Below, piece after piece: positions 1-51,240 of a DNA stretch of 64,000 bases. Where the stretch lies: sequence record OL451225.1, one strand, 5' to 3'. The position numbers were made by a program, and so were the translations under genes. The DNA is from Escherichia phage P896. The notes under the pieces were generated by a model. It saw only the letters and a program-made list of their open reading frames with translations. It had not been told where the DNA came from and ran no database searches. The number at the start of each line of letters is the position of its first letter. Position 1 is the stretch's first letter.

Positions 1-191
1 GACGGACCAGCAAAAATAGTCAAACCTGACTGCATACCACCATCTAGTGCACCGCTGATTGCAATGTTCAGCATCGGGATTTTTGTACGAACTACATCTT
101 TACCATTAAAGAACTTGGACTTGGTAAGAGTCGCGGTCATTTTGGATGTAGAAGCTTTAATCAAACGGGATTTCAAATCTGCAATAGACAT
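1..191 (-). CDS. uvsX: UvsX recombinase (RecA-like), N-terminal fragment; gene continues beyond the window start
   Basis: Minus-strand translation from ATG at 191 reads MSIADLKSRLIKASTSK...SKFFNGKDVVRTKIPMLNIAISGALDGGMQSGL, matching the recalled T4 UvsX N-terminus. Absent from the ORF track because there is no stop inside the window. Confidence 0.7.
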   Translation of the reverse strand, partial: MSIADLKSRLIKASTSKMTATLTKSKFFNGKDVVRTKIPMLNIAISGALDGGMQSGLTIFAGP

Positions 192-276
192 TCATTTTTT
201 CCATAGGCACCATCATATTTTTCTCACAGGTTTAAGATATGATAATTATATCACTGTATTTTTAGAGCAATTAATG

Positions 277-780
277 TTAGTTAATACCTTGGCGTGCTTT
301 CTCTTTAGCTACACATTTATTAATATAGCTCAGACGGTTTTGAGCAGAACGCTGATACATATCGCGGTACTCATTAGCTTTTGGAGAACCCGTCTCCGCT
401 GCCTGATAAGCTTCTGCGCGCATGATGTTTATCTGCATATTGATATATGACATGCAGACCTGCGAAATCTGGTTAACAGTATCCAGGTCATTTTGTCGCT
501 TGGTTTCTGCTTCCAGCTTGGCAATGATTTCGTCATGCTTCGCAGCTTGCTCGCGTTTGTACTCAATTTCTTGTTGAGCATATTTCGCGCAGTTGTTTCC
601 ACATTGATTGTTGTCGCGTTTGTAGATAAGTCCAGTACCACCTTTGAAATCAAAGGAACCATTATGCACCTGACGGTCTGCAGCAATTCGCGCTTTACCA
701 ATCTCGTTGGCATTAACAACATCACCCTGGTAAGCACAACCAGATAGCAGCATAACAGCTGCGATAGCTAACTTTTTCAT
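277..780 (-). CDS. predicted lipoprotein, 167 aa (signal peptide with LSGC lipobox)
   Basis: ORF 277..807 trimmed to the internal ATG giving MKKLAIAAVMLLSGC. Sits where T4 carries beta-gt and gene 42. Confidence 0.55.
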   Translation of the reverse strand: MKKLAIAAVMLLSGCAYQGDVVNANEIGKARIAADRQVHNGSFDFKGGTGLIYKRDNNQCGNNCAKYAQQEIEYKREQAAKHDEIIAKLEAETKRQNDLDTVNQISQVCMSYINMQINIMRAEAYQAAETGSPKANEYRDMYQRSAQNRLSYINKCVAKEKARQGIN

Positions 781-930
781 TGTATTTTCCTCAATTAAAA
801 CATTCATAGCGGGCTTGGAGCCCCAAAAATACCCAACCCAAAATTAAAGTTGGAATCATATGTGGAGTCATTATTGCCCAGTAGATTGACATACTAAAAA
901 ATGCAATCAGTACAATAATTGTAATTATCT

Positions 931-1173
931 TCATTTTGCTTCCTTGATGATAATTACTTGTGCATTTGATTTACGTTCAGCAACGAGTGCCCAGATAAAT
1001 GCAATAAACCATCCGACCATTGTCCAACCTAACAGGAGGTTAACAAAGAAGATTCCGCAATTACTTTTGGTTCCACGCAGTAGCGCGATAATCCACGGCA
1101 GAAAATATACCAGTGCAGCCAGGAAGAAAGAACCAGCCCCAAGAACAACAGTACCCGCAATTAATGCTTCCAT
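931..1173 (-). CDS. imm: small two-helix membrane protein, Imm-like (superinfection immunity) by position
   Basis: ORF 931..1245 starts on GTG; trimmed to ATG at 1173 preceded by GAGGA. 80 aa with two hydrophobic helices, immediately downstream of gene 43 as imm is in T4. Confidence 0.5.
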   Translation of the reverse strand: MEALIAGTVVLGAGSFFLAALVYFLPWIIALLRGTKSNCGIFFVNLLLGWTMVGWFIAFIWALVAERKSNAQVIIIKEAK

Positions 1174-1189
1174 TTTAATATCCTCAAGT

Positions 1190-1245
1190 TTGTAATCAGT
1201 AGTTGATGGAACAATCATACGGCAATCCTTTGCCGTTGTAAACAC
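1190..1245 (-). promoter_or_regulatory. sigma70-type early promoter cassette (minus-strand -35 GTTTACA, 17-bp spacer, -10 TATGAT) with CGGCAA/TTGCCG inverted repeat in the spacer
   Basis: Read directly on the minus strand upstream of the imm-like start; same architecture recurs across the window. Confidence 0.5.
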
Positions 1246-3960
1246 TTAAAAATCAAACATATCAAAAAGAGTTGCTTTCTTTTCGTAATCAACCTTTGCA
1301 GCTTCGGAGAAACCTGTTAATGGCTTAACAAAAGTCTTCTGGAACAGTGTGTTGTAGTCCATCCACTGCAGAACCTGGTCACGGATTTCAATCGGGAGTT
1401 CAATCCCAGATGGCCATGCAATCACGGTTTCACCAAACGGGTTGCCGACTTTGAGCGGAAGTACATACACCTTTTCCCCTTCCATGATTTGCGGAACAGT
1501 CTTCAGACCTTTAGTTGCACGCATATATGCAAGCACACCTTTGATATGAGCCGGACACTTAAATCCAGGGAAACCGCCTTCATTATATTTCTGGATGTTG
1601 TTAACCGATGATACACCTGCGATGGTCATGTAGTTAAGCTCATTAAATTCCTTATTGAATTCCTTGAAGTATGTCTGCAGAGATTCTTCACCTTCTTGCA
1701 GCATACGGCGGATACATTCTTTCAGAGCTTTCTGACATGCCTTTGGAGTACTCGACTTTTGAGTTTCCAGACCCATGATTTTCAGTTTCGGAACAGCATA
1801 TCGTGTGCCTTCCATATCGTACACGTTCAACGCATAACGCTTCTTCGCTGTCCAGAATCCACCAACACCCTTCGAACCCAGTGGAGGACATGCAATCGCC
1901 TCACGGTCCATAAACATAAGGTGCTGTTTGTTGTTCATGTATTCAGCCAGCTCACGGAAAGCTTTATCGATTGCCGGTTCCAGACGGTCTTTCGCAAACT
2001 TGTCCATGAAGTCAACCAGGTGGTTTGTATCGCGGAATTTAGATTCACCACCAACCTTTTTAATCAGGTTATCGCACTGGATATAAATGGAGTCAGTGTC
2101 ACCATAGAATACGTAGGTTTCGCCGCTTGTCCCACAGACACTATCGAAGTATTCGTTAACTTTACGCTCAATCCACTGCAATGCAAGTTGTCCGAAAGAT
2201 GTAATCGCGGTTGCATTTCGCAGGTCAAAGTAACGGAACCATATATTGCCCAGAGCGCCATAACAACTGTTGATAAGCAGTTTACGGTTAATCTGTGCGG
2301 TCATGCCTGCAACTTCTTCCATCTGCGCTTTGTACAGCATACCATTTAGGACTGTTTGATTCAGACCATGCAGGGCCGTTTTCATATTGTCATCAAAGTC
2401 ATGACGATAATCAACTTCAGGCTCGGTTGTACCAGTTCCTGGATTACGCAGAGCTTCCTTAATCAGTTCACCATTACGTTGAGCCGCAAGCATATAGCCT
2501 TTGTGTTCTTTACGCTGATTAAACACCTTGGTGACTTCTGTCGGAATAATACCCGCAACATCTTTAAAATACATCATACCATTTGGAGCACAACTAAATG
2601 TATCAGATGGACGGTCAGCAGTTCCTGCAATGTATTCGTACATCGGCGCTGGCGCAAATGACCCGGCAATCGTTTCTGGACTGATGTTAATCTGTCGGAT
2701 AATGCTTGGATACAGAGATGTTAAGTCACAGCTCATTACATATTTGTATGCGTTCGGAATCGGTTCCTTAACAAATGCACCAGGGAACGATTGGCGAACA
2801 TGTGATTTGGTTTCCGGAATGACTTTGTTTTGAGTCTTCAGGCTGTTAAAGATAATCGCATCCCAAGTTTTGATTGGGCTGAATACAGACTGAATCTGCA
2901 TTTTTGCATAATAACCCATTGACTGGCTCAGGTTAATAAACTGCCGCTTACGGTCAATCTGCACAACACGATAAACGTCGATGATGTTATAAGAAATATA
3001 CCGCTGGTGATTTGATTCACGCAGTTTAGAAATCGGGCCATCATACGGGAGTTTACCAACACCCAGTTCAGATTCCGCAACATAATCCAACGAATAAGAC
3101 GGTTGGTTTGTGAAGCTGAACTTTTTATACAGGTCCAGATAATCCAGAACAGAGATACCCAGAATCTGAATGATTTCTTGTTCTTCACCAAAGCCGTTGT
3201 TAATGACTTTAACTTTTGTACGACGATGTGGGCTCAGACGTTTTGCCGTAGCTTCACCAAATACATTTTTAAGGCGGTTGTAGATATATGGAATATCAAA
3301 CTTCTCGATGTTCCAACCAGTTAACATAACCGGAGTTTTCTCGTTCCAGAATACCAAATACTGCTGGAGCATTTCTTCTTCTGAATCGAAAGCCATATAA
3401 ACAATTTTTTCCAGGATTTCTTCCGGGACTTCATCACCACCATCTTCCTGCAGCTTAGCAGCAATATCAATAGACCATTGCTCCACAGTGGCGTATGGTG
3501 AGCCCAAAAGGTCAAAGACATAGAATTTATCGTCTACCGAATCATAGTGCGTCAGGGCGTCAATAGGGTGACGTGCTTCAGACGGCTCAGGGAACCCATC
3601 AGGAGATGTCACCTCGATATCGAAGTTAGCCACACGGATTTTACTTGAATCGTATTTGATTTCGTGCGGGTAACGGTCGGACAAGTATGCGAGTTTAAAG
3701 TCGTCCATGCCCATGGCTTCGAGGCCCATGTCATTCATTCGCTTCATCCACTGGGATGCATCACGCATGGAATCGAATTCTTTTTTCACACAACCTTTAT
3801 TATAGATGTCTGTATACTTTGCAGCTTGGTCTTCACGGGCGTGCATAAACAAGCATGGAGCATAAGGGATTTCACGAACACGTTCATGACCATTCTTGTC
3901 AATATATCGTTCGTGTAGGTTGTCACCGATTTGTTCGATAGTTAAATAAAATTCTTGCAT
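1246..3960 (-). CDS. 43: DNA polymerase (family B), gp43
   Basis: 904-aa ORF with N-terminus MQEFYLTIEQIGDNLHERYID close to recalled T4 gp43; exonuclease and polymerase motifs (YGDTDS) present; ATG start with AAGGAAA RBS. Confidence 0.97.
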   Translation of the reverse strand: MQEFYLTIEQIGDNLHERYIDKNGHERVREIPYAPCLFMHAREDQAAKYTDIYNKGCVKKEFDSMRDASQWMKRMNDMGLEAMGMDDFKLAYLSDRYPHEIKYDSSKIRVANFDIEVTSPDGFPEPSEARHPIDALTHYDSVDDKFYVFDLLGSPYATVEQWSIDIAAKLQEDGGDEVPEEILEKIVYMAFDSEEEMLQQYLVFWNEKTPVMLTGWNIEKFDIPYIYNRLKNVFGEATAKRLSPHRRTKVKVINNGFGEEQEIIQILGISVLDYLDLYKKFSFTNQPSYSLDYVAESELGVGKLPYDGPISKLRESNHQRYISYNIIDVYRVVQIDRKRQFINLSQSMGYYAKMQIQSVFSPIKTWDAIIFNSLKTQNKVIPETKSHVRQSFPGAFVKEPIPNAYKYVMSCDLTSLYPSIIRQINISPETIAGSFAPAPMYEYIAGTADRPSDTFSCAPNGMMYFKDVAGIIPTEVTKVFNQRKEHKGYMLAAQRNGELIKEALRNPGTGTTEPEVDYRHDFDDNMKTALHGLNQTVLNGMLYKAQMEEVAGMTAQINRKLLINSCYGALGNIWFRYFDLRNATAITSFGQLALQWIERKVNEYFDSVCGTSGETYVFYGDTDSIYIQCDNLIKKVGGESKFRDTNHLVDFMDKFAKDRLEPAIDKAFRELAEYMNNKQHLMFMDREAIACPPLGSKGVGGFWTAKKRYALNVYDMEGTRYAVPKLKIMGLETQKSSTPKACQKALKECIRRMLQEGEESLQTYFKEFNKEFNELNYMTIAGVSSVNNIQKYNEGGFPGFKCPAHIKGVLAYMRATKGLKTVPQIMEGEKVYVLPLKVGNPFGETVIAWPSGIELPIEIRDQVLQWMDYNTLFQKTFVKPLTGFSEAAKVDYEKKATLFDMFDF

Positions 3961-4010
3961 TTGGTTTCCTTTATAGTCGAGTGATTGACTTTTGTTTTAT
4001 GACTTGACGC

Positions 4011-4031
4011 TATTATACTACAAAAGGGACC
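4011..4031 (-). terminator. stem-loop GGGAC-UUCG-GUCCC followed by U-rich tract, between regA and gene 43
   Basis: Hairpin with tetraloop and TTTTG run read on the minus strand; about 50 nt upstream of the gene 43 RBS. Confidence 0.5.
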
Positions 4032-4050
4032 GAAGTCCCTTTGCTTTAAA

Positions 4051-4419
4051 TCAATTACCAATTGTATATTTGGCTACGAGCTTCCAGTCGTCTTTTTGTT
4101 TGAAGGAGATAACACGGAAGTTATTTGTTACTGCGAACAATTCATTATGCTCTTCTTCTTTGATAGCGATTAAGCCCCAGTCTTCAAGCAGTTGAGCAAT
4201 GGAATCACGGCGCTGATAGTCTTCGCCATCAATATCCACCTGACGACCATCCATGCGCAGCATTTCTTTGAAGTGAACAATATAATAACGACCTTGCTTT
4301 TGGAGGATGTGGCAGCTCTGGTACAGCACACGGTCTTTATTATTTGCGATGCCCATACGGGTCAGAGTTTCTTTAACTTTCAGGAAGTCTTCAGGTTGCT
4401 TTAATGTAATTTCAATCAT
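4051..4419 (-). CDS. regA: RegA translational repressor of early genes
   Basis: 122 aa, same length and position (between 62 and 43) as T4 RegA. Confidence 0.85.
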   Translation of the reverse strand: MIEITLKQPEDFLKVKETLTRMGIANNKDRVLYQSCHILQKQGRYYIVHFKEMLRMDGRQVDIDGEDYQRRDSIAQLLEDWGLIAIKEEEHNELFAVTNNFRVISFKQKDDWKLVAKYTIGN

Positions 4420-4420
4420 T

Positions 4421-4999
4421 TTACCATTCCAATATTTGTTTTTTAATTTCTTTTTGTTCTTTCACATTACTGGTAACGGTCTTTAAGAATTCATCCGTTA
4501 CCAGACCTTTTGTCTTTTTCAAAACATCTTTAAGACTACCTTTGACTTTCAATGTTTCCATATACATCAAAGCATCATCTGCATTAATTGTATAATATTT
4601 CATTAAAAGCTTGAGCACAAGCTGAACGCTGACTACATCCGGTTCAGACTTGGCCCATTTGCCATAACGCTTGCCTTGCGGAACCGCATGCAGCAAATAA
4701 TTATAATGCTGCTGGTCTGTTAACCCGGAACCGATTAAGTTCATCACGTTCACCTGCATGATGCAATCAACATGTTGACTCAATGCGTTATCCAGCCAGA
4801 ATTTATTGTAGTTTTCCGATTGAATCAGGTTCCGTGGTTTTTTGCTAACGGTTATGTCGTTAAGAATCGCGAACAATTCATTTTCTGCTTTCTCTTTGTA
4901 TGAATCGGACAATTCCTGAATTTTGTTAAAGTCGCGTGATTTCCACGCAACCTCATGTTCGTTTAATTGAACGTCATCATCAAAGAGACTTACAGCCAT
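4421..4999 (-). CDS. 62: clamp loader small subunit gp62
   Basis: 192 aa; N-terminus and synteny with gp44 match T4 gp62. Confidence 0.88.
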   Translation of the reverse strand: MAVSLFDDDVQLNEHEVAWKSRDFNKIQELSDSYKEKAENELFAILNDITVSKKPRNLIQSENYNKFWLDNALSQHVDCIMQVNVMNLIGSGLTDQQHYNYLLHAVPQGKRYGKWAKSEPDVVSVQLVLKLLMKYYTINADDALMYMETLKVKGSLKDVLKKTKGLVTDEFLKTVTSNVKEQKEIKKQILEW

Positions 5000-5949
5000 T
5001 TCATTTCCCCAGCCAGTTGAGCAAACAAATAAGTCAAGTGAACTTCGGTATTGGCCGCAATGCCATGGTACTGATTATTCTCACCTACAATCTCATACAT
5101 GCGGATGATACTTGCACCAGTCAGTTTGCCATACATTTCATCAGCCAGCTTTGCGATGAAGCTTGAATAATCATTTGCATGCTTAGGAGCCAGGCCACGG
5201 AGAACTTTAAAGTTACGGTCCTTAAGGGCATCAATCACATCATCAATTGGTGTGCGATTGTTTGTCACGATACTCAGAATACCAGAATCGATAACACCCT
5301 TTGCCGAGTAACGGTCAAGCTCGTTAATTGTCTTACGCAGGTCCGGGAAGTTATGCTTAACCAGAGCAGCAACAACTTTCAGGTCTTCGATTTCAACGCC
5401 TTCATTTTTACATACCGCAACTGCACGATGAATCATCTCTTTCATCATGGTAGTCTGGTCAGCCGGAGTTGCTTCACCGAACTTAATGACGCGACAACGA
5501 GACTGCAACGGAGTAATGATGCCATCAATATTGTTCGCGGTCATAATGATTGAACAGTTGCTCGAATAAGCTTCCATAAAGCTACGGAGGTGCCGTTGTG
5601 ATTCAGCCAGACCTGCACGGTCGAACTCATCGATAACGATTACCTTGCGGCGACCTTCGATTGATTTGGATGATGCAAAGCGAGTCAATTCATTACGCAC
5701 AAAGTCAATTCGACAATCGGAGCCGTTAACAAACAGCATATCAGAATTCGTATCTGCGCACATAGCTTTTGCAACTGTTGTCTTACCAGTACCAGGGGAA
5801 CTACTGACCAGAATCAAGTTAGGAATCAAACCTTTTTTAACAATCGCCTCTAATGTTTCTTTATCATGAGCCGGGAGAATACACTCTGATAATGTACCTG
5901 GGCGGTATTTTTGTTCCCACATGAATTCTTTGTCATTAACCGTTAACAT
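4990..5949 (-). CDS. 44: clamp loader ATPase subunit gp44 (AAA+)
   Basis: 319 aa; Walker A SSPGTGKTT and DEFD Walker B; position between 45 and 62. Confidence 0.95.
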   Translation of the reverse strand: MLTVNDKEFMWEQKYRPGTLSECILPAHDKETLEAIVKKGLIPNLILVSSSPGTGKTTVAKAMCADTNSDMLFVNGSDCRIDFVRNELTRFASSKSIEGRRKVIVIDEFDRAGLAESQRHLRSFMEAYSSNCSIIMTANNIDGIITPLQSRCRVIKFGEATPADQTTMMKEMIHRAVAVCKNEGVEIEDLKVVAALVKHNFPDLRKTINELDRYSAKGVIDSGILSIVTNNRTPIDDVIDALKDRNFKVLRGLAPKHANDYSSFIAKLADEMYGKLTGASIIRMYEIVGENNQYHGIAANTEVHLTYLFAQLAGEMKWL

Positions 5950-6005
5950 ATATTTTCCTCATATTAGTTTCTACTTTGTACTCCATGGGGTCAAAGCCCC
6001 ATTTA

Positions 6006-6701
6006 TTAATCTTGGAATTCGTGGCTAGAGCCTTGTTCCATTGCAATCACATAGCTTGCTTGTGTGCCTTCAAACTTCGTAGCAAATTTATCATCTTTCG
6101 CCCAAAGCATAACACGGTAATCAGCCGGAATCATTTTCATGTTCAGTTTGTTAATGATAAATTTGAACGCTGCATCGCCTTCATAATCACCACACACCAG
6201 GGAATACAATGGACGCGTTAATTCTTTATCTTCGAGCTGGTTATAACCATGGATAACAATCTTACCGTCTTTGTTGGTGATTGCAAAAGTATCCAGAGAC
6301 AAACCACCAGCCACACGCAGAAGCTGCTGCAGGTCACTACCTTTCAGGTCGAAGATAACCTTAGCTACCGGGAAAGGAATCTTCTTAGCAGGGAACACGA
6401 TAGTGCTCGGGTCAGCTGCAGGCCAGTGAATCGTTGAACGTTGGTCTTTGATAATGATATTCGATGCATCTTCAGCCAGGGATACTTCAGCTTGGTCAGT
6501 TACCAGGCCCAGAATACTTAAGAAGCCGTTCAGGTCATAAATTGCAGCTTCAAAGTCAATTGTATCATTGATTTCAGATTCACCATATGACGCTCCAGTT
6601 ACAGAACGAGTCAGGATGGTATTACCCGGCTTAAGCATAATGCCAGAGTAAATGGAAGTGAAGTTTTTCAGAACTGCGATAGTGTCTTTAGAGAATTTCA
6701 T
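6006..6701 (-). CDS. 45: sliding clamp gp45
   Basis: 231 aa; N-terminus MKFSKDTIAVLKNF close to recalled T4 gp45 MKLSKDTTALLKNF. Confidence 0.95.
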   Translation of the reverse strand: MKFSKDTIAVLKNFTSIYSGIMLKPGNTILTRSVTGASYGESEINDTIDFEAAIYDLNGFLSILGLVTDQAEVSLAEDASNIIIKDQRSTIHWPAADPSTIVFPAKKIPFPVAKVIFDLKGSDLQQLLRVAGGLSLDTFAITNKDGKIVIHGYNQLEDKELTRPLYSLVCGDYEGDAAFKFIINKLNMKMIPADYRVMLWAKDDKFATKFEGTQASYVIAMEQGSSHEFQD

Positions 6702-6731
6702 TTAATTACCTTTTATTCAAATCAAAATTAA

Positions 6732-7139
6732 TTAAGCAACAACTGCCATTTGTTTGCGGATAGCTTCTGGAAGAGATTCAATATACTCTGGAAGTTGCGC
6801 AGCAATAATAGAACCAGCTTGCACCAGATGGTCGTCAGAGTTAACACAATAATCATCTTCAAGACGTTCGGAACCGTCGCGGTCGATAACCAGTTTAGCA
6901 CCAGCAGCCAGTGAATCGTTGTAGTGATTGCGCATCAGTTCAATCCACTTATCAGATACATCAGTATCAATCACACCATACAACATGAATTTAACTTCTT
7001 GAGGAAGTGATTTCAAACGGGTGGCAGATGCTTCATCACATGCCAGGACCCAGGATTTGCGGACGCGGTTTTGGTTATGTGGGTTGGCGTCGGTGCGGAT
7101 GGTTTTAACTTGGATATCTTTAGCAGTTACGTTGTTCAT
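6732..7139 (-). CDS. rpbA: RNA polymerase binding protein RpbA (by position)
   Basis: ORF 6732..7163 begins on TTG; trimmed to ATG at 7139 preceded by AGAGAGAAT; lies between 46 and 45 as in T4. Confidence 0.55.
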   Translation of the reverse strand: MNNVTAKDIQVKTIRTDANPHNQNRVRKSWVLACDEASATRLKSLPQEVKFMLYGVIDTDVSDKWIELMRNHYNDSLAAGAKLVIDRDGSERLEDDYCVNSDDHLVQAGSIIAAQLPEYIESLPEAIRKQMAVVA

Positions 7140-7163
7140 AATATTCTCTCTATTCATTATCAA

Positions 7164-7355
7164 TTAATCAAAGTATTCATATGCAAACCAGGCTTTGTGT
7201 CTGTTCGCGATTATTTTAACATATTCTTCACCGAAAGCGTTTTGTAAGTCACGTTCAGTAACAAGGTGTTCATCTTTCGAAAAGGTATTAACTAACACAT
7301 ACCGTTTAATTTCAGGGACAGCCAGTAAATGCTGCCCGGTTAAGAAGTCAGCCAT
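7164..7355 (-). CDS. hypothetical protein, 63 aa
   Basis: ORF 7164..7415 begins on TTG; trimmed to ATG at 7355 with AGAGG RBS. Confidence 0.4.
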   Translation of the reverse strand: MADFLTGQHLLAVPEIKRYVLVNTFSKDEHLVTERDLQNAFGEEYVKIIANRHKAWFAYEYFD

Positions 7356-7389
7356 AATAGCCTCTATTATAACATCCTTGTTTAAAGCA

Positions 7390-9072
7390 TTATTCCATAA
7401 CAGTGAATCGACCAACTTTTTTCATCTGGAGATGTTGCCCGTATGCTTCCGGGTCATGGTCTCGGTGACTGATAATAAAGATGTTGGTGTCTTCCAATTT
7501 GTTCAGGATGGTAGCAATTGCTTTAACCCCCTCTACATCAGTAGCTGAATCGAAAACTTCGTCCAGAATCAAGGTGTTAATATTAACACCAGATACTTTC
7601 GCAGCAATATCACGCCATGTAAACAGCAATGCAATATCGATACGAGCTTTTTCACCTTGGCTAAATGATGCATAGCTGAAGTCTTCACGTCCACGAGATT
7701 TAATCGTTTCGTTGAACTCTTCATCTAACGTAAAACTATAATCAGCTTCCATAACTTTAAGGTAAGCGTTTATCTGCTTATTAAAGATAGGAATATATTT
7801 CTTAATAATAGCACCTTTGATACCGGAATCTTTCAACATATCCGTTAGGATACCACGTTGATATTTTTCCATCACAAGGTCGGATTTCTGTTTGACTATT
7901 TTATCAAGCTGGTCTTGAAGCATTTTAATGTCTGCCGCATGGTCAATGAATTCTGACTTAGCTTGCTCGATTAATGCTTTAACCTTTTTAGCTTTTTCGA
8001 CAGTCTGGACTAAGGTTTGTTTCTTAGTTTGAATGTCTTGAGCTATTGTACGTTGTTTTTGTCTTGCAGCAGAATACGCATCAAATTGCTCCTGAACAGC
8101 GTTCTGGCGAGCTTTATGGTTATCAGCTGATACATTACATTCTTCAATCTTTGACTCAATCCTGGCGACAATGGGGTCTCCTGGATGCAACTGACTGGCA
8201 CAAGTCTGACAACAACCACCTTTCTCGTACAGACCAACAACCTTTCGGTAATCGTCTATCTTCGACTTAATCAGGAATGATTCCTGCTTTAACTTCGTGA
8301 GTTCATGCTCAGGGTCTTCTCCCAAGATTATCTCGGTCAGTCTTGTCGTTGCTTCTTCGATAGTCGTTTTGATTCCACGTGCTTCCGTAGCAAGTTCATC
8401 ATACATCGTTTGTAGCCGCAACAGATTATCACCTGATAATTTTCTTTGACGGTCTTCGTTGTCCTGATAGATTTTAATCTGTTGAACAATACCATCATGC
8501 TGCACATCCATCACCTGGATTTGACTATTGACTTCGCGGATAAGAGATTTGTTCAGCTTATCCATATCGGCCAGTACAGAAACCTCTAAAAGGTCTTCGA
8601 CAAGTTTTCTTCTTGCAGGAGTGGATAGGCCCATAAAAGGGGTATATCCAGCTGTGCCGAGTACGACAATCTGTTTGAAGCTTGCATAGGACATTCCGAT
8701 AAGCTGTTCAAATTCCGCTTGGAAGTCTTTACTGCTGGCAGATTCATCAAGACGTTTACCGCCACAAGAGATTTCAAAAACATTGGGTTTTTGCCCGCGT
8801 TTGATATAGTATTCTTTTCCATCATATTCCATCCACAATTCAACGAGCATATCTTTTTTGTTGCTCGAGTTAATCAACTGGCCTTTCTTTACATCACGGA
8901 AAGGCTTACCGAACATAGCAAAGGTAACCGCTTCAAGGAACGTAGATTTACCCGCGCCATTCTTACCGGTGACCAGAGTTTTTTGGACTTTATCCAGTTC
9001 AACAGTAATCGGTTGAGCACCAACCGACATAATATTTTTATAGATAACTTTCTTAAGCTTAAAAGTCTTCAT
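7390..9072 (-). CDS. 46: recombination endonuclease subunit gp46 (SbcC/Rad50-like ATPase)
   Basis: Walker A GKNGAGKST near N-terminus, long coiled-coil middle, C-terminal signature/Walker B; start set at MKTFKL (T4 gp46 begins MKNFKL). Confidence 0.93.
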   Translation of the reverse strand: MKTFKLKKVIYKNIMSVGAQPITVELDKVQKTLVTGKNGAGKSTFLEAVTFAMFGKPFRDVKKGQLINSSNKKDMLVELWMEYDGKEYYIKRGQKPNVFEISCGGKRLDESASSKDFQAEFEQLIGMSYASFKQIVVLGTAGYTPFMGLSTPARRKLVEDLLEVSVLADMDKLNKSLIREVNSQIQVMDVQHDGIVQQIKIYQDNEDRQRKLSGDNLLRLQTMYDELATEARGIKTTIEEATTRLTEIILGEDPEHELTKLKQESFLIKSKIDDYRKVVGLYEKGGCCQTCASQLHPGDPIVARIESKIEECNVSADNHKARQNAVQEQFDAYSAARQKQRTIAQDIQTKKQTLVQTVEKAKKVKALIEQAKSEFIDHAADIKMLQDQLDKIVKQKSDLVMEKYQRGILTDMLKDSGIKGAIIKKYIPIFNKQINAYLKVMEADYSFTLDEEFNETIKSRGREDFSYASFSQGEKARIDIALLFTWRDIAAKVSGVNINTLILDEVFDSATDVEGVKAIATILNKLEDTNIFIISHRDHDPEAYGQHLQMKKVGRFTVME

Positions 9073-9322
9073 CGTAATAAGCATCCTTGATACATGATTC
9101 AGCCATATGGATTAATGCCTCTGGAGTATCATCTTCCATTACATTAAAGCTAAATTCCACGGCCCAATCGGTGACTACATAGACTTTGATAAGTTGACCA
9201 GTTTCCCGGTCAGTGATAGCTTCAAACCAATACTTAATAGTATTCGGTTGATTATCGTCGTCAACCACATCACATTCGCGGATATGCTCAAGTCCCGCTT
9301 CATTAAAATCATAAAGTCTCAT
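9059..9322 (-). CDS. hypothetical acidic protein, 87 aa, between genes 47 and 46
   Basis: ATG start; start overlaps gene 47 stop and end overlaps gene 46 start (coupled). Confidence 0.5.
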   Translation of the reverse strand: MRLYDFNEAGLEHIRECDVVDDDNQPNTIKYWFEAITDRETGQLIKVYVVTDWAVEFSFNVMEDDTPEALIHMAESCIKDAYYDEDF

Positions 9323-10338
9323 TGTTGCACCTCAAGATATAATTTGTTGGCCAATGCTTTGAGAGCTTTTGATTCTTTCTCATTGGCGTCAGGTAATGCA
9401 TCGATATATTCTGCCATCATATCTGTTAAGCGTTTTATGTCTAACTCTTCATCAGAGTCTGACGTATCAACACTGTTATCAACCTTATTGACAACACGCA
9501 ATTCATGCACACGCTTTTCTAATTCAGATTCGAACTTGGTCAGGTCTTTATCGACTTTTTCTACAATAACACGGACTGATAAGTCTTTGAAGTCGTCGTA
9601 GTTAATAGTTTCGTTTGGATAGAAAATCTTCCGATGCCAGGTGGTTTCATTCGGAATAAATTTCATCTCTTCGGTTTCGGTATCAAATTCCCAGAACCCG
9701 CGCGGGTCGTTCTCATCACCTGCTGTTAATGTCCATGGTGTCCCGATGTACTTAACGTTTGCGGCTTCTGAAATGGTATGAAAGTGACCAGACCAAACTT
9801 GCTTGTACTTCTTAAGGAAATCAGGCTCAAGTCCGTGGGATTTCAATCCTTTATAGAAATAAAACCCGGTTAATTCCCAGTGACCGATGCAATATTCAGC
9901 CCCAGAAGTTTTGATGTGTTGATGAATGTCAGTTGCGTTCTCGTCACACATCCATGGAATCATATCAATCTGATAACCGTCAAAATCAACAGTCGTTGGC
10001 TTATCGTAGATTTTAACATGGTCATACTTATTCAGGAGTTCAGTGATAGCATTGGGATGAATCTTATTCTTCAGATTCATGTCATGGTTCCCGACTATCG
10101 TGTGCATAGTAATTCCTGCTTCACGAAGGAGTTCCATAATCTCACGGCTGAATTCCATCGTCTTATGCGTTACGGCCTTACGGACGTCAAAAATATCACC
10201 ATATTGAATCCAGACTTTAATCCCATTCGCTTTGGAATATGCAATCGCCTGTAAAATACCATCGCGTTGAATGTTTTGAGCCCATGGGTCGTCAGCTTTG
10301 ACACCCAAGTGCCAATCACCTAAATTTAAAATTTTCAT
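9319..10338 (-). CDS. 47: recombination endonuclease subunit gp47 (SbcD/Mre11-like phosphoesterase)
   Basis: Trimmed from TTG at 10365 to MKILNLGDWHLGVK (T4 gp47 start); calcineurin-like phosphoesterase motifs GDxxD, GNHD. Confidence 0.93.
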   Translation of the reverse strand: MKILNLGDWHLGVKADDPWAQNIQRDGILQAIAYSKANGIKVWIQYGDIFDVRKAVTHKTMEFSREIMELLREAGITMHTIVGNHDMNLKNKIHPNAITELLNKYDHVKIYDKPTTVDFDGYQIDMIPWMCDENATDIHQHIKTSGAEYCIGHWELTGFYFYKGLKSHGLEPDFLKKYKQVWSGHFHTISEAANVKYIGTPWTLTAGDENDPRGFWEFDTETEEMKFIPNETTWHRKIFYPNETINYDDFKDLSVRVIVEKVDKDLTKFESELEKRVHELRVVNKVDNSVDTSDSDEELDIKRLTDMMAEYIDALPDANEKESKALKALANKLYLEVQQ

Positions 10339-10478
10339 AAGCCAAGCACCGTTATCGCAATGCAAAATAAAATTATTGAAATGAACCCGTCAGGAGTGGA
10401 AAAGAATCCTATCCAACAAGCTCGTGTGAATGTATAGAATGCCATGAATAGCACGACATATCCTAAAAATAATTCCAT
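10335..10478 (-). CDS. small hydrophobic membrane peptide, 47 aa
   Basis: Not in ORF track (below 60 aa). ATG with GAGGAG RBS; stop overlaps gene 47 start (ATGA). Confidence 0.4.
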   Translation of the reverse strand: MELFLGYVVLFMAFYTFTRACWIGFFSTPDGFISIILFCIAITVLGL

Positions 10479-10525
10479 ATGTTCTCCTCAGTTGGTTCAT
10501 TTTATCATCCCGAATATAAAGCAAA

Positions 10526-10547
10526 AAGGAAGCACTAGGCTTCCTTT
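10526..10547 (-). terminator. hairpin GGAAGC-n4-GCUUCC followed by UUUUUGCUUU
   Basis: Inverted repeat plus T-run read on the minus strand. Confidence 0.45.
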
Positions 10548-10708
10548 CCAATTAATACACCATACAGAGGTTCATGAGAAGACCTGAACTTGATAGGCTT
10601 ATAGGTAATAGTACCTTCATTTTCTGCTTTAATACGAGCGGCTTCAAATTGAAGTATCATCTCATTTTTGTCAGATTTAATCTTATCAAAATCCGTCGAA
10701 TTCGTCAT
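10535..10708 (-). CDS. possible small ORF, 57 aa
   Basis: ATG 8 nt after GAGG; below the ORF-track cutoff; weak support. Confidence 0.25.
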   Translation of the reverse strand: MTNSTDFDKIKSDKNEMILQFEAARIKAENEGTITYKPIKFRSSHEPLYGVLIGKEA

Positions 10709-10766
10709 TCATATGACCTCTTAAACTTTTTCGTATTCGTCGTTCATTAGCCTGCTGTCCATGTTA

Positions 10767-10973
10767 TCATCGTTGCCACCATTTCTTAAGTTGATGTGAG
10801 TCTACCCAAACTTTGGATGTCGGCTCAATTTTAACAATACCTTTTGGAACACCATAAGGGCCAAGGAGCTTACATTCGGTTTCGGACTGCTTGATACAGA
10901 TATTACCGTATGAGCGAAGTCTGAAAGCGGCTCCAATAAGAAGCCGTTTAAAAGGTTTATTTACTAATGCCAT
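10767..10973 (-). CDS. hypothetical protein, 68 aa
   Basis: ORF track; ATG start; lies where T4 has alpha-gt. Confidence 0.45.
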   Translation of the reverse strand: MALVNKPFKRLLIGAAFRLRSYGNICIKQSETECKLLGPYGVPKGIVKIEPTSKVWVDSHQLKKWWQR

Positions 10974-11268
10974 TTACGATTTCCCAAATTTGTTTGCGAG
11001 TAGAATCCCACATCAACTTAATCAGGTCTTCCGTAACGGGTTGGCGGTAAATCCCACGCAGTTTAACTAAAGCGTATTTGTATGCTTCAAAATTGTTTTC
11101 CAGCACTGCGCCTTGAGCATGCTTATTCAGTCGTGCAATTTCACGAGCATTCTTTTTCAGAATCTTCGCTGCTTGGCTGGTTGCTTCAAGTGCGTTCGCT
11201 TCTTCGAGACGTTCCTGTGCTTCTTCAATCTGCTTATCGGTCAGTTGAGAAATATCTGGAGCTTGCAT
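10957..11268 (-). CDS. hypothetical protein, 103 aa, helical
   Basis: ORF track. Confidence 0.5.
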   Translation of the reverse strand: MQAPDISQLTDKQIEEAQERLEEANALEATSQAAKILKKNAREIARLNKHAQGAVLENNFEAYKYALVKLRGIYRQPVTEDLIKLMWDSTRKQIWEIVNGISK

Positions 11269-11269
11269 A

Positions 11270-11503
11270 TTAATCCTTGGGAGTTAACTCAATTGTAAAA
11301 TATAGATTAGCATTATCCACATGATAACGGTAATCAACGTTATTATCCGGTGAAGTAAATTCCAGATTCCGGACGTTTAAAGGGTCGATATCAATTGGAA
11401 GACCTTTTATGTCTCGCAGATAAAGTTTAATGAAATATGGGAGCGCCGTAAAGTCTTCCTCGATTTTATCTAAAAAATCGGTAATATCAAATTGATGTTC
11501 CAT
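11270..11503 (-). CDS. hypothetical protein, 77 aa
   Basis: ORF 11270..11521 begins on GTG; trimmed to first ATG. Confidence 0.4.
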
Positions 11504-12044
11504 ATAAAAAATCCAAATCACCCTCTTTATCTTTGGCGCTCTTATCAGACCCTGGCGCTTTAACTAAGGAGGATTCGTACTGTGTCATTTTGTCGTAGAT
11601 GTCCTGGATAAATGTTTCATCAGCCAGAGCCACCATATCGTCATCACGTGAATCGTATACGTTATGGACGAAGTAGCTATATTTCTTTGCCATTTCTTTA
11701 CGTTCTTTTTTGATACGCTGAACGAAAGCATTGAAGCAAGCCATTGTTATGTAAGCATGTGGATTATCGTATTTTGTTTCGTCGAAGTTGTGAAGACCTT
11801 TTATTGCGGCCTCAATTCCGTCCGCTATCATTTCTTGCTTCCAGGATTGGGTATATCCGGAGAAGTTGAAACGTTTGCTAAGACCTTCGGCTATAAGCAT
11901 AATCGCCAGACCAATAACATCGTTCTGGCGAATAATTTTGTTCGGGTCAGTGTTCGCATTCAGCTTCTGTTTCCACTCCGAAATAGCTTTCAAAAGCTCT
12001 TTATTATTTACATAGTTATTCTTGGTTAATTTAATTTCGTTCAT
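11487..12044 (-). CDS. 55: late-transcription sigma factor gp55
   Basis: 185 aa; internal segments ([39 protein letters not shown]) match recalled T4 gp55 almost exactly. Confidence 0.93.
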
Positions 12045-21629: not shown

Positions 21630-21670
21630 GAATTCATTATACTCCCTCCATCCTTGGAAGTAAACATTAT
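21630..21670 (-). promoter_or_regulatory. early promoter (-35 GTTTAC, 18-bp spacer, -10 TATAAT)
   Basis: Hexamers read on the minus strand just upstream of the 329-aa gene. Confidence 0.55.
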
Positions 21671-22572
21671 TTTAATGCTAAAATCGCCGCCTGCAATTTA
21701 TTGCGTTGTGTTTCCATGTTCTTGATGCGATTCAGAACATCCTGGATACCCTTTTTCTCATCTTCAATCAGACCATTTAAGCGGTTGACTGATTCCTGGA
21801 TAGCATCAGCATGATGTTTCTCAATAGGCTTCATTGATGGGTTAAAGATTCCAAGAGAGCTAGCCGGTTTGACTTTCCATTGGTACATATTTTTAACGTC
21901 CAGCGGTGAAATAGGCTGTGTTTTATATTGACCTGCAAATGCTGGACCATATGATGCGGATGATGCGATAGGGGTACGTTCTGTCATTTCTGGTTCCTTT
22001 TTCTCCTGATAAGGAGCGTAAGACAAAAGATATTCTTTAGTCAATTTAATATCAATGGTTATAGTTTTAAGGAATTTTTCCGTTTGGTGGATATAATTTG
22101 TATCTTCTTCAAACGTGTATGCTTCAACAGCATGGCGCATATAAAACAGCGCAATACCCATAACCTCTTTAAAGGTATCACAAAGAGCAACATCACCCTT
22201 GGTGGTTGGCTTGAACTTAATCTGCACACCATCATTCTTGATATTGATAATCAAGTTACTGGAGGTAAAATTATAGTTCTTGATGTTAACTGGAGCTTTA
22301 CGAATACGAAGTCCAGCTGCCAGGATTTCCTTGATACTCTTACGAACTGTGACACCAAACAAAAACGCAGGGCGGCGGCAGTAATCATTCAGAGAGTTAA
22401 TTCTTACAATACGTTGACCATACCCCTGGGTGGCAGAACCAGATTTGATTTTGCCAAAGTTAACCAGAGAATTCATCGCAATAAGACGGGTTGCACGTCC
22501 TTCACGCTGTTCAAATCGAGAATATTCTTTACGTGTTTTAATGTTCATATCAGAGTCCAAATAATTTTTCAT
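21667..22572 (-). CDS. hypothetical protein, about 300 aa
   Basis: ORF track; start uncertain (ATG at 22572 or 22548, neither with a strong RBS). Confidence 0.55.
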   Translation of the reverse strand: MKNYLDSDMNIKTRKEYSRFEQREGRATRLIAMNSLVNFGKIKSGSATQGYGQRIVRINSLNDYCRRPAFLFGVTVRKSIKEILAAGLRIRKAPVNIKNYNFTSSNLIINIKNDGVQIKFKPTTKGDVALCDTFKEVMGIALFYMRHAVEAYTFEEDTNYIHQTEKFLKTITIDIKLTKEYLLSYAPYQEKKEPEMTERTPIASSASYGPAFAGQYKTQPISPLDVKNMYQWKVKPASSLGIFNPSMKPIEKHHADAIQESVNRLNGLIEDEKKGIQDVLNRIKNMETQRNKLQAAILALK

Positions 22573-45994: not shown

Positions 45995-46032
45995 CATACC
46001 TTGTCGGGGTTCCACCTGCAAGGCAAGTGTTC

Positions 46033-47934: not shown

Positions 47935-47936
47935 AA

Positions 47937-50562: not shown

Positions 50563-50563
<1 letters not shown>

Positions 50564-51240
50564 TATATTACCTTATTAATTTTATCAAAAAGTTCATCGA
50601 GTGTGCCATCGTTTTTAATAACAATGTCACTAGCTAGTGGTGGAAGTCCAGCTTCCGTAATGTGTGTATCAGTAGAATGATTTGCTTCATCGCGTTCTAC
50701 AAAGATTATTGTAGCACCCATCGCCCGAAGCGAATCAAGTTCGTTCTTTTGGCGAACATCTGGGACAACGTAATATTTATATCCAGAATAGAGGTTGTCA
50801 AGATAGTCGCATGCAAAAGTTTTAATCCAAAACATGCTGTCGAACTCTGTACAAACGATGTCAGTTCCAAGGGTCTGCATGAAACGTCTAACTGTCCAGG
50901 GCTCAACATTATTTAGTGTGTGAAATTCAATAATTTTACGAACCATATCTGGATTCGGAAGGTCAAGATTATATTGTTGTTTCAACCATTCAAGAGCATC
51001 AACCAGAAGAATATAAGCTTCGGTGTTGTTCATTATCAAGGTTTTTTCACGGTCATAACCTTGCCCGTCAAAATTTTCCAGGGTCAAATTGTGTGGCAGG
51101 TCTTGACGAATCCACGCTTTATAAAGCGCTTCTTTAATCGGACCAGCAAGCTGCCACTTTGTTCCATTTTGACTAATAACATAATCAGCAGTCGTATCTT
51201 TACCGCTGCGTTTTTTACCCACAATCGCAATTAATTTCAT
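50563..51240 (-). CDS. 1: deoxynucleoside monophosphate kinase gp1
   Basis: 225 aa; P-loop IVGKKRSGKDT; position before genes 3-2-4. Confidence 0.88.

What the first reader, a model, noticed from the sequence alone, without database searches (positions are those of the whole stretch)
277..11486. Cytosine-modification genes are missing from their T4 positions
Between uvsX and imm, where T4 has beta-gt and gene 42 (dCMP hydroxymethylase), this phage has only a 167-aa lipoprotein gene. Between gene 47 and gene 55, where T4 has alpha-gt, there are only three or four small novel ORFs. This suggests the phage does not make glucosyl-hydroxymethylcytosine DNA, or does so with relocated or different enzymes. 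That fits the rich set of candidate anti-defence proteins elsewhere in the window.
Basis: inference. Interest (0 to 1): 0.55.

Follow-up and report, generated by a model that had tools for sequence, protein, structure and literature searches.

The report
T4-like phage lacking cytosine-modification genes
This T4-like coliphage (genus Gaprivervirus) lacks every known gene for sugar-decorated cytosine, which is already documented for the genus, but its relatives' "thymidylate synthase" carries the one active-site change known to turn that enzyme into a dCMP methylase, so the DNA probably carries 5-methylcytosine.

Summary
The window is a Gaprivervirus: 97.7% nucleotide identity to Shigella phage SP18 and collinear with SP18 22,854-86,262.

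**Observation: mostly right.** T4 gene 42, beta-gt, alpha-gt and T2-type beta-alpha-gt have no homolog in the window or anywhere in SP18. All 32 Gaprivervirus records share the same compact uvsX-lipoprotein-imm-43 layout. Two details are wrong:
- The ORFs between genes 47 and 55 are not novel. They are T4 47.1 and a-gt.2 to a-gt.5.
- The lipoprotein is a conserved neighbour (JS98 gp043), not a replacement.

**What is missing.** Sister genus Dhakavirus (JS98) carries the five-gene arabinosyl-5-hydroxycytosine cluster at this exact slot. That cluster is also absent here.

**What is kept.** The genus keeps gp56 dCTPase, alc, denB, denA, cd, frd and gp1, all under strong purifying selection. Two papers (2021, 2025) already noted this paradox and proposed an unknown base.

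**New lead.** Every full-length Gaprivervirus td read (17 cluster members and representatives, plus VR7 read from its genome) has Asp at E. coli ThyA position 177. 115 of the 116 nearest Tevenvirinae td have Asn. Asp177 is the experimentally established switch from dUMP to dCMP and is shared with the validated Xp12 dCMP methylase. The likely outcome is 5-methylcytosine DNA.

**Limits.** td lies outside the window, and no chemical data exist.

The parts
1..191 (-). uvsX, N-terminal part (the gene runs off the left end of the window)
   Evidence: tblastn with JS98 UvsX: 77% identity over 61 aa. Start codon read.
192..276 (.). 85-bp spacer at the slot where T4 carries segA, beta-gt and gene 42, and where JS98 carries the five-gene arabinosyl-5-hydroxycytosine cluster gp038-042
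   Evidence: Sequence. T4 layout, JS98 layout. No hits for any of these proteins.
277..807 (-). Lipoprotein with lipobox LLSGC (167 aa from the second ATG at 780). Homolog of JS98 gp043, which VR7 annotators named '42.1'. Function unknown.
   Evidence: 52% identity to JS98 gp043, E=9e-44. Weak N-terminal match to T4 Imm.1, E=0.002. No Pfam or NCBIfam hit.
791..934 (-). Small membrane ORF, homolog of JS98 gp044 / RB69 orf054c
   Evidence: tblastn 56% identity, E=9e-11
931..1173 (-). imm, superinfection immunity protein
   Evidence: 69% identity to JS98 Imm and 51% to T4 Imm. Pfam PF14373.
1246..3960 (-). Gene 43 DNA polymerase. It would have to accept the modified dCTP.
   Evidence: 904-aa ORF. 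SP18 gp43 annotation lies under the match.
9319..10338 (-). Gene 47, recombination endonuclease subunit
10335..10478 (-). 47.1 homolog
   Evidence: 82% identity to T4 47.1, E=3e-21
10479..10534 (.). 56-bp spacer where T4 carries alpha-gt and mobB. It overlaps a terminator-like hairpin at 10522-10550.
   Evidence: T4 layout. No alpha-gt hit. Hairpin.
10535..10708 (-). a-gt.2 homolog (DUF5486)
   Evidence: 58% identity to T4 a-gt.2. Pfam PF17588.
10767..10973 (-). a-gt.3 homolog
   Evidence: 46% identity to T4 a-gt.3, E=1e-13
10957..11268 (-). a-gt.4 homolog (DUF2654)
   Evidence: 42% identity to T4 a-gt.4, E=3e-21. Pfam PF10849.
11270..11521 (-). a-gt.5 homolog (DUF5491)
   Evidence: 39% identity to T4 a-gt.5, E=3e-12. 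Pfam PF17595.
11487..12044 (-). Gene 55 late sigma factor, the right-hand landmark
50563..51240 (-). Gene 1 dNMP kinase. This is the only step of the proposed modified-dCTP pathway that is encoded inside the window.
   Evidence: phmmer to T4 Dnk structure 1DEK, E=1e-57. T4 gp1 supports incorporation of 5-methyl-dC made by Asp177 enzymes (bioRxiv 10.1101/2024.12.05.627091).

Best explanation
The window comes from a Gaprivervirus. This genus of T-even-type phages has lost the whole cytosine-hypermodification island that sits between uvsX and imm in its relatives. In T4 the island is gene 42 plus beta-gt. In RB69 and JS98 it is the 5-hydroxy-dCMP synthase plus the arabinosylation genes. The genus also has no alpha-gt.

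The phage nevertheless keeps the T4 machinery that excludes and punishes ordinary cytosine: gp56 dCTPase, Alc, DenB and DenA. So its own DNA is most likely not ordinary.

The proposed route is as follows.
1. gp56 converts dCTP to dCMP.
2. The phage's 'thymidylate synthase' Td carries Asp instead of Asn at the pyrimidine-specificity position (E. coli ThyA 177). It methylates dCMP to 5-methyl-dCMP with methylene-tetrahydrofolate.
3. The overlapping frd gene (DHFR) recycles the dihydrofolate.
4. gp1 kinase (in the window) and host NDP kinase raise the product to 5-methyl-dCTP.
5. gp43 (in the window) incorporates it.
6. dTMP would come from deamination of the 5-methyl-cytosine nucleotide by Cd, or from host ThyA.

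Shown: the gene absences, the retention and selection of the other genes, and the Asp177 substitution in all relatives. Inferred: the enzyme's activity, the base in the virion, and that this particular genome carries the same td.
For: **Identity and absences**
- The window is 97.7% identical to SP18 and collinear with it.
- There is no homolog of T4 gp42, alpha-gt or beta-gt, of T2-type beta-alpha-gt, or of JS98 gp038-042. This holds for the window and for the whole SP18 genome.
- A thymidylate-synthase-family HMM finds only td in SP18.
- The same compact locus occurs in all 32 Gaprivervirus records.

**Retained genes**
- SP18, VR7 and VR25 keep alc, denB, denA, ndd, cd, td and frd, and SP18 also keeps gp56 and gp1.
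- Within-genus dN/dS is 0.06-0.09 for alc, 0.07-0.11 for denB, 0.03-0.04 for td, 0.04 for cd and 0.09 for frd. Housekeeping genes nrdA, nrdB and gp32 give 0.02-0.14.

**The Asp177 substitution**
- Td reads LGLPFDIGSYG in SP18, in all four Gaprivervirus protein clusters, in 13 further full-length cluster members and in VR7, which was read from its genome.
- 115 of the 116 nearest Tevenvirinae td have PFNIASYA. These include JS98, Bp7 and the T4-type RB phages.
- Position equivalence was checked against the T4 thymidylate synthase structure 1TIS.
- The experimentally validated Xp12 dCMP methylase also has Asp there.
- All other catalytic residues and the C-terminus are thymidylate-synthase-like.

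**Literature**
- N177D switches thymidylate synthase to dCMP and gives 5-methyl-dCMP (PMC8670742).
- Five of seven Asp177 homologs made 5-methyl-dC in vivo with T4 gp1. Phages with 5-methylcytosine DNA make dTTP by deamination (bioRxiv 10.1101/2024.12.05.627091).
- CpG methylation blocks Alc (Kashlev 1993, as cited in PMC8056088).
- The paradox and an 'unknown base' were stated in PMC8056088 and PMC12115623.
Against: - No chemical or restriction data for any Gaprivervirus DNA were found in the library.
- td lies about 120 kb from the window in SP18 coordinates. The window's own genome is not in the phage collection (best hits 93-97%), so Asp177 in this genome is an extrapolation.
- Fully 5-methylated DNA should be a substrate for E. 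coli McrBC, McrA and Mrr. Yet some members list K-12 hosts, and no clear Arn homolog is annotated in SP18.
- It is untested whether gp56 spares 5-methyl-dCTP, and whether DenB ignores 5-methylcytosine.
- Alc divergence (46-55%) is the same between all three genera, so it says nothing specific.
- Two of seven Asp177 enzymes tested by others did not give 5-methyl-dC.
Confidence: 0.6

Rival explanations
1. The DNA contains ordinary cytosine. The modification island was simply lost. gp56 works mainly as a dUTPase and pool balancer, as in RB49 and RB43. Alc and DenB have drifted to functions or specificities that no longer harm the phage's own cytosine DNA.
For: - No known base-modifying enzyme is found by homology.
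- Phages with canonical DNA such as RB43 and RB49 also keep gp56 and denA (PMC8056088; PMC12115623).
- Gaprivervirus DenB is unusually divergent: 42-43% identity to T4 and JS98, which are 62% identical to each other.
Against: - alc and denB are intact and under strong purifying selection (dN/dS 0.06-0.11).
- Published tables show alc and denB co-occurring with cytosine replacement in every other genus.
- gp56 is 85% identical to JS98 gp56 and 70% to T4 gp56.
- This view does not explain a fixed, selected Asp177 in td, which would cost the phage its own dTMP synthase.
Confidence: 0.15
2. The Asp177 Td makes a different C5-substituted dCMP, for example 5-hydroxymethyl-dCMP. It would then functionally replace gene 42, and the base would be left unglycosylated or finished by unrecognised enzymes.
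For: - Asp at this position is shared by dCMP hydroxymethylases (T4 gp42 Asp179) as well as by methylases.
- Two of seven Asp177 homologs tested by others did not give 5-methyl-dC.
Against: - Td keeps every thymidylate-synthase catalytic residue (R21, E58, W80, Y94, C146, H147, R166, S167, D169, H207, Y209) and the C-terminal ...MAV that closes the site for hydride transfer.
- T4 gp42 and the JS98 5-hydroxy-dCMP synthase have Thr after the catalytic Cys and lack that C-terminus.
- N177D point mutants of true thymidylate synthases give 5-methyl-dCMP.
- frd overlaps td and is conserved, as expected if dihydrofolate is produced.
- No glycosyltransferase is detectable.
Confidence: 0.12
3. An unrelated, still unrecognised enzyme among the many ORFs of unknown function makes a new non-canonical base. 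Asp177 in td would then be incidental.
For: - This is the reading offered in the literature (PMC8056088, PMC12115623).
- Many window ORFs have no Pfam hit or only DUF hits.
Against: - Judged from the SP18 annotation notes, ORFs with no stated JS98 or T4 counterpart are nearly all under 150 aa.
- The two larger exceptions are gp130 (RB69-like, 218 aa) and gp165. The window itself lacks gp165.
- No candidate enzyme domain was seen.
- A sufficient candidate, Td Asp177, already exists.
Confidence: 0.1
4. This particular phage, unlike its sequenced relatives, carries gene 42 or glycosyltransferases in the roughly 106 kb of genome outside the window.
For: The genome outside the window was not available. 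The window is a mosaic not identical to any deposited genome.
Against: - SP18 was searched end to end and has none.
- Published genus-level tables mark the hydroxymethylase as absent.
- The T4 and JS98 positions for these genes lie inside the window and are empty.
Confidence: 0.03

Closest known systems
Gaprivervirus phages SP18, VR7, VR20, VR25 and VR26 (Tevenvirinae)
   Same: - 93-98% nucleotide identity and full synteny over the window.
- Identical compact uvsX-lipoprotein-imm-43 and 47-47.1-a-gt.2..5-55 layouts.
- The absence of a hydroxymethylase, with alc, denB, 56 and denA retained, is already published for the genus (PMC8056088, PMC12115623).
   Different: The window is a new mosaic member. 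It has a SegA-like homing endonuclease between gp53 and gp5. It lacks SP18 gp165. It has two tRNAs rather than three. Several 0.3-1 kb segments have no SP18 match.
Dhakavirus JS98 and Mosigvirus RB69: arabinosyl-5-hydroxycytosine system
   Same: - Same genome chassis.
- The lipoprotein (JS98 gp043), the small membrane ORF (gp044), imm and the a-gt.2-.5 ORFs are all shared.
- There is no alpha-gt or beta-gt in either.
   Different: - JS98 has five extra genes between uvsX and the lipoprotein. They are the 5-hydroxy-dCMP synthase homolog gp039, a glycosyltransferase-like protein, a kinase, a phosphatase and a nucleotidyltransferase-kinase (PMC13326640). None has a homolog here.
- JS98 td has Asn177. 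Gaprivervirus td has Asp177.
Phage T4 glucosyl-hydroxymethylcytosine system
   Same: gp56, gp1, cd, frd, td, alc, denA, denB and ndd are all present in the genus, and the gene order is conserved.
   Different: There is no gene 42, alpha-gt, beta-gt, segA, mobB or dam. Td has Asp instead of Asn at the specificity position.
Xanthomonas phage Xp12: complete replacement of C by 5-methylcytosine through a thymidylate-synthase-family dCMP methylase
   Same: - Asp at E. coli ThyA position 177, and loss of Phe149, in the thymidylate-synthase homolog.
- DHFR and a dCMP-deaminase-family gene are also present.
- The logic matches: a methylase, a kinase, and deamination for dTMP supply.
   Different: - Xp12 is an unrelated siphovirus. 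Its enzyme aligns with Td only with many gaps and substitutions and also differs at H147, Q165 and the C-terminus.
- The Gaprivervirus enzyme is a recent derivative of T4-type Td: 68-70% identical to its nearest Tevenvirinae td and full-length aligned to T4 Td 1TIS.
- The three genes are clustered in Xp12. Here td and frd overlap and cd lies about 10 kb away.
- The Gaprivervirus additionally has T4-type dCTPase, Alc and DenB.
- 5-methylcytosine is proven for Xp12 and only predicted here.

Membership tests
T4-type glucosyl-hydroxymethylcytosine system | dCMP hydroxymethylase (gene 42) | tested here: not met
   tblastn and phmmer with T4 gp42, plus a thymidylate-synthase-family HMM, against the window and the whole SP18 genome. 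Only td is found.
T4-type glucosyl-hydroxymethylcytosine system | DNA glucosyltransferases (alpha-gt, and beta-gt or beta-alpha-gt) | tested here: not met
   No tblastn hit below E=0.56. No glycosyltransferase domain in 30 window ORFs.
T4-type glucosyl-hydroxymethylcytosine system | dCTPase gp56, dNMP kinase gp1, and the cytosine-DNA-directed Alc and DenB | tested here: met
   gp1 is in the window. gp56, alc and denB are in SP18, and alc and denB also in VR7 and VR25, intact and under purifying selection. Apart from gp1 these were not testable in the window's own genome.
RB69/JS98-type arabinosyl-5-hydroxycytosine system | 5-hydroxy-dCMP synthase (thymidylate-synthase homolog, RB69 gp48 / JS98 gp039) | tested here: not met
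   tblastn and phmmer with JS98 gp039: no hit in the window or SP18.
RB69/JS98-type arabinosyl-5-hydroxycytosine system | Arabinosyltransferase and NDP-arabinose synthesis genes between uvsX and imm | tested here: not met
   JS98 gp038, gp040, gp041 and gp042: no hit. The slot is an 85-bp spacer. The RB69 gp3 slot between rIIA and gene 39 holds only small ORFs in SP18.
Xp12-type 5-methylcytosine replacement (thymidylate-synthase-family dCMP methylase) | Thymidylate-synthase homolog with Asp at E. coli ThyA position 177 | tested here: met
   Met in all Gaprivervirus td examined: four cluster representatives, 13 further full-length members, and VR7 read from its genome. Not testable for this genome, because td is outside the window.
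Xp12-type 5-methylcytosine replacement (thymidylate-synthase-family dCMP methylase) | Enzyme methylates dCMP, and virion DNA has 5-methyl-dC replacing dC | not testable with these tools
   Needs an enzyme assay and nucleoside LC-MS. No published data were found.
Xp12-type 5-methylcytosine replacement (thymidylate-synthase-family dCMP methylase) | Companion DHFR and a dCMP-deaminase-family enzyme for dTMP supply | tested here: met
   frd overlaps td. cd is present, with dN/dS 0.04. Xp12 has the same trio. The substrate range of Cd is untested.
Genus Gaprivervirus | High nucleotide identity and synteny with the type members | tested here: met
   97.7% identity to SP18 over 12.5 kb and collinear over 64 kb.

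The most novel reading that the evidence does not exclude
Gaprivervirus phages would be the first T-even-type coliphages that replace cytosine with 5-methylcytosine. They would have discarded the ancestral hydroxymethyl or hydroxy-cytosine glycosylation island. A single Asn-to-Asp change, plus neighbouring F149L, A179G and A182G changes, would have converted their own thymidylate synthase into a dCMP methylase. dTMP would then be obtained by deaminating the methylated cytosine nucleotide. This would be a natural replay of the classic N177D/N229D specificity-switch experiment, and it would answer the 'unknown base' question raised in 2021 and 2025.
Probability: 0.55. Interest if true: 0.75.

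Novelty: new variant of a known kind. Interest (0 to 1): 0.6.

Why it matters
- Gapriverviruses are being proposed for phage therapy.
- The base in the DNA determines sensitivity to restriction, to type IV systems (McrBC, GmrSD/BrxU) and to CRISPR. It also determines transduction risk and which sequencing chemistry works.
- A specific, cheaply testable candidate (Td Asp177 giving 5-methyl-dC) turns an open question into a one-week experiment.
- It would also document how a phage can swap one cytosine modification for another by re-tooling a housekeeping enzyme.
- The enzyme still scores as 'thymidylate synthase' in annotation pipelines, passing the TIGR03284 cut-off. That explains why genome surveys missed it, and it suggests that other mis-annotated cases exist.

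Tried and rejected
- **Relocated T4 genes.** tblastn of T4 gp42, alpha-gt, beta-gt and dam, and of T2-type beta-alpha-gt, against the window and all of SP18 found nothing.
- **JS98/RB69-type cluster.** No hits.
- **Hidden thymidylate-synthase-like gene.** phmmer and an HMM over all six-frame ORFs of 50 aa or more found only td.
- **Other modification routes.** These were DNA methyltransferase plus TET plus glycosyltransferase, or other enzymes, inside the window. Pfam on 30 ORFs gave only DUFs, an RlaP-type nucleotidyltransferase (T4 NrdC.11 homolog), a Macro domain and y05I domains.
- **Lipoprotein as a functional replacement.** Rejected. It is a conserved neighbour that coexists with the modification cluster in JS98.
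- **'Novel' small ORFs.** Rejected. They are T4 homologs.
- **Alc divergence as a sign of changed specificity.** Rejected. Alc is equally divergent between all three genera. DenB divergence is only suggestive.
- **Finding the window's own genome to read its td.** No record is better than 93-97% over the variable part.
- **Experimental data.** The VR7 and VR5/7/20 papers are not held. The Yersinia Gaprivervirus paper reports no restriction or modification data.
- **Promoter and terminator scans of the two empty slots.** Nothing above shuffled expectation except one hairpin.
Full report
**1. What the window is**

The first 12.5 kb match Shigella phage SP18 at 97.7% identity. About 30 other records of the genus Gaprivervirus (Tevenvirinae) match at 92-97%, including VR7, VR20, VR25, VR26, UPEC01, P479, DK-13, MN01 and CJ20. 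The whole 64 kb is collinear with SP18 22,854-86,262, with a handful of indels. No deposited genome is identical, so this is a new mosaic member of a known genus.

**2. Checking the observation**

The minus-strand gene order is as follows:

| Coordinates | Gene |
|---|---|
| 1-191 | uvsX (partial) |
| 277-807 | lipoprotein |
| 791-934 | small membrane ORF |
| 931-1173 | imm |
| 1246-3960 | 43 |
| between 3960 and 9319 | regA, 62, 44, 45, rpbA, 45.2, 46, 46.2 |
| 9319-10338 | 47 |
| 10335-10478 | 47.1 |
| 10535-10708 | a-gt.2 |
| 10767-10973 | a-gt.3 |
| 10957-11268 | a-gt.4 |
| 11270-11521 | a-gt.5 |
| 11487-12044 | 55 |

T4 has segA, beta-gt and 42 between uvsX and imm. It has alpha-gt and mobB between 47.1 and a-gt.2. 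tblastn with T4 gp42, alpha-gt and beta-gt gives nothing better than E=0.59 in the window or in the complete SP18 genome. The T2-type beta-alpha-gt gives nothing better than E=0.56.

So the absence is real. Two details in the finding are wrong:
- The ORFs between 47 and 55 are not novel. They are the same small ORFs that flank alpha-gt in T4 (E 1e-12 to 1e-21). Three of them also hit Pfam DUFs.
- The lipoprotein is not a stand-in for the missing genes. It is the homolog of JS98 gp043 (52% identity), and in JS98 it coexists with a modification cluster.

The compact layout is genus-wide. All 32 Gaprivervirus records hold this 1.3-kb stretch, from the start of uvsX into gene 43, within 1.3-1.55 kb.

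**3. The right comparison**

In JS98 (Dhakavirus, the sister genus) the uvsX-imm slot holds five genes, gp038-gp042, annotated as RB69 orf047c, 048c, 045c, 051c and 052c-like. A 2026 study showed that RB69 gp48 is a thymidylate-synthase homolog that makes 5-hydroxy-dCMP. Its neighbours are the arabinosyltransferase, nucleotide kinase, phosphatase and NDP-sugar enzymes for arabinosyl-5-hydroxycytosine. That study lists Dhakaviruses among the carriers (PMC13326640).

None of the five JS98 proteins has a homolog in the window or in SP18. The slot here is an 85-bp spacer. T4, RB69 and JS98 all carry a thymidylate-synthase-family enzyme at this position, so loss in the Gaprivervirus lineage is the parsimonious reading (inference).

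**4. The paradox, already in the literature**

SP18, VR7 and VR25 keep alc, denB, denA, ndd, cd, td and frd. SP18 also keeps gp56 dCTPase (85% identical to JS98, 70% to T4) and gp1. In T4, dCTPase, Alc and DenB make sense only if the phage's own DNA lacks ordinary cytosine (established T4 genetics; summarised in PMC2993671).

Two comparative papers noted exactly this for Gaprivervirus.

I added a selection test within the genus (SP18, VR7, VR25):

| Gene | dN/dS |
|---|---|
| alc | 0.06-0.09 |
| denB | 0.07-0.11 |
| denA | 0.02-0.10 |
| td | 0.03-0.04 |
| cd | 0.04 |
| frd | 0.09 |
| nrdA, nrdB, gp32 (comparison) | 0.02-0.14 |

These genes are in use. They are not decaying remnants.

**5. A candidate that had been overlooked**

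I aligned SP18 'td' with T4 gp42 and JS98 gp039 to build a family profile. The alignment showed that SP18 Td reads QRSVDVFLGLPFDIGSYG. Canonical thymidylate synthases read PFNIASY at this point.

The Asn is E. coli ThyA N177 (L. casei N229), the residue that hydrogen-bonds O4/N3 of uracil. Changing it to Asp converts thymidylate synthase into a dCMP methylase (Liu and Santi 1992; Hardy and Nalivaika 1992; as cited in PMC8670742). dCMP hydroxymethylase has Asp179 at the same position.

A search of 5.8 billion proteins gave the following:
- Four clusters at 86% identity or more to SP18 Td, all with Asp.
- 116 next-best Tevenvirinae td at 64-70% identity. Of these, 115 have Asn, including Dhakavirus (Bp7), T4-type RB phages and other Tevenvirinae td.
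- All 13 further full-length cluster members have Asp. These include VR25, VR26, UPEC01, DK-13, P479, MN01 and CJ20. VR7, read directly from its genome, has Asp too.

The position was confirmed by alignment to the T4 thymidylate synthase crystal-structure sequence 1TIS. The Xp12 enzyme has Asp at the same column. It is a thymidylate-synthase homolog that was shown experimentally to make 5-methyl-dCMP, in a phage whose DNA has 5-methylcytosine in place of C.

Other features of Gaprivervirus Td:
- All other thymidylate-synthase catalytic residues and the C-terminus are retained. This favours reductive methylation over hydroxymethylation.
- Further substitutions fixed in the genus cluster near the pyrimidine pocket: F149L, A179G and A182G.
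- Phe149 is also replaced in Xp12 and in a second T4-like Asp177 lineage found on a metagenomic contig.
- td overlaps frd (DHFR), which is needed to recycle the dihydrofolate that methylation produces.
- The protein still passes the NCBIfam thymidylate-synthase cut-off. This explains why surveys scored the genus as lacking a base-modifying enzyme.

**6. Proposed mechanism**

1. gp56 converts dCTP to dCMP.
2. Td(Asp177) converts dCMP to 5-methyl-dCMP, with Frd recycling the folate.
3. gp1 converts this to 5-methyl-dCDP. gp1 is in the window at 50563-51240, and matches T4 Dnk at E=1e-57.
4. Host Ndk converts this to 5-methyl-dCTP.
5. gp43 incorporates it into DNA.

Supporting literature:
- T4 gp1 supports this route in vivo.
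- 5-methylcytosine blocks Alc action (Kashlev 1993, as cited).
- dTMP could come from Cd acting on the methylated nucleotide, as in 5-methylcytosine phages, or from host ThyA.

Which steps are shown and which inferred:
- Shown: the gene presence and absence, the selection, and the substitution.
- Inferred: the activity of Td, the selectivity of gp56, DenB and Cd, the base in the virion, and that this genome's td matches its relatives.

**7. Weak points**

- No chemical or restriction data for any Gaprivervirus were found. The two VR-phage papers are not held.
- td is outside the window.
- Fully 5-methylated DNA should be attacked by McrBC, McrA and Mrr. Some members list K-12 hosts, and SP18 has no annotated Arn.
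- Two of seven Asp177 enzymes tested elsewhere did not yield 5-methyl-dC.
- Alc divergence is uninformative. DenB divergence is only suggestive.

**8. Verdict**

The genes are absent, but the flanking ORFs are ordinary T4 homologs.
There is no glucosyl-hydroxymethylcytosine and no relocation. A different enzyme for a different base is likely.
- The absence itself is already known for the genus.
- The explanation offered here is an Xp12-like 5-methylcytosine pathway built by re-tooling the T4-type td. It is a new variant of a known kind. I did not find it in the papers searched, and it is directly testable.

Noticed in passing
SP18 locus L003:16588-16821 (-), with counterparts in VR7 (L007:12011-12244) and VR25 (L008:14752-14985). 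Outside the window.: A 77-aa paralog of the N-terminal part of Alc sits next to the full-length alc in Gapriverviruses. It is conserved (dN/dS about 0.22) and absent from JS98 and T4.
   Followed up: partly
window 53843-54478 (+): A GIY-YIG, SegA-like homing endonuclease ORF lies between gp53 and gp5. It is 42% identical to T4 SegA over 115 aa, and it hits NCBIfam group I intron endonuclease just under the cut-off. SP18 lacks it.
   Followed up: partly
window 56035-57039 (ORF 56168-56749, +): Between gp5 and gp6, SP18 has a 2-kb gene (gp165, RB43ORF205w-like). The window instead has about 1 kb of unrelated sequence, with a 193-aa ORF that has no family hit.
   Followed up: no
window 21667-22572 (-): An intact 301-aa DUF7235 protein. 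The SP18 record splits the homolog into two ORFs (gp092 and gp093), so SP18 probably has a frameshift or a sequencing error.
   Followed up: no
window 30598-31077 (-): The Tk.4 homolog carries a Macro domain (Pfam PF01661, E=5e-8). It may act on ADP-ribose and is possibly a counter-defence function.
   Followed up: no
window 46909-47061 (-), with flanks 46032-46537 and 46965-47940: The window has only two tRNA genes (Arg-tct, Met-cat), against three in SP18. The surrounding 0.5-1 kb segments have no SP18 match, so this is a hypervariable patch.
   Followed up: no
L012 (Logan contig SRR24146912_91236), td at 3953-4831: A second T4-like lineage has an Asp177 td (P0069, 67% identical to SP18 Td) downstream of frd.2, frd.1 and frd. 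The substitution is therefore not confined to Gaprivervirus.
   Followed up: partly
Alignment of td homologs, E. coli ThyA position 149: Every Asp177 enzyme aligned has lost Phe149 (Leu in Gaprivervirus, Met in P0069, Ser in Xp12). 114 of the 116 nearest td outside the genus keep Phe at this position; the exceptions are one Ala and the Met of P0069. This may be a co-varying second specificity determinant next to H147.
   Followed up: partly
SP18 denB, L003:46568-47122 (-). Outside the window.: Gaprivervirus DenB is only 42-43% identical to both T4 and JS98 DenB, which are 62% identical to each other. Most other proteins compared do not show such a genus-specific jump (MotA and, less so, Frd do).
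   Followed up: partly
IMG/VR loci L013-L035: 23 viral contigs encode the motif GLPFDI[G/A]SY[G/A]. Besides VR20, VR25 and VR26, they include contigs of about 5-57 kb that are clearly not T4-like genomes, so close relatives of this Asp177 motif occur in other phage types.
   Followed up: no
window 10522-10550 (-): A 12-bp-stem terminator-like hairpin lies at the 3' end of a-gt.2, exactly at the spacer where T4 has alpha-gt and mobB.
   Followed up: no
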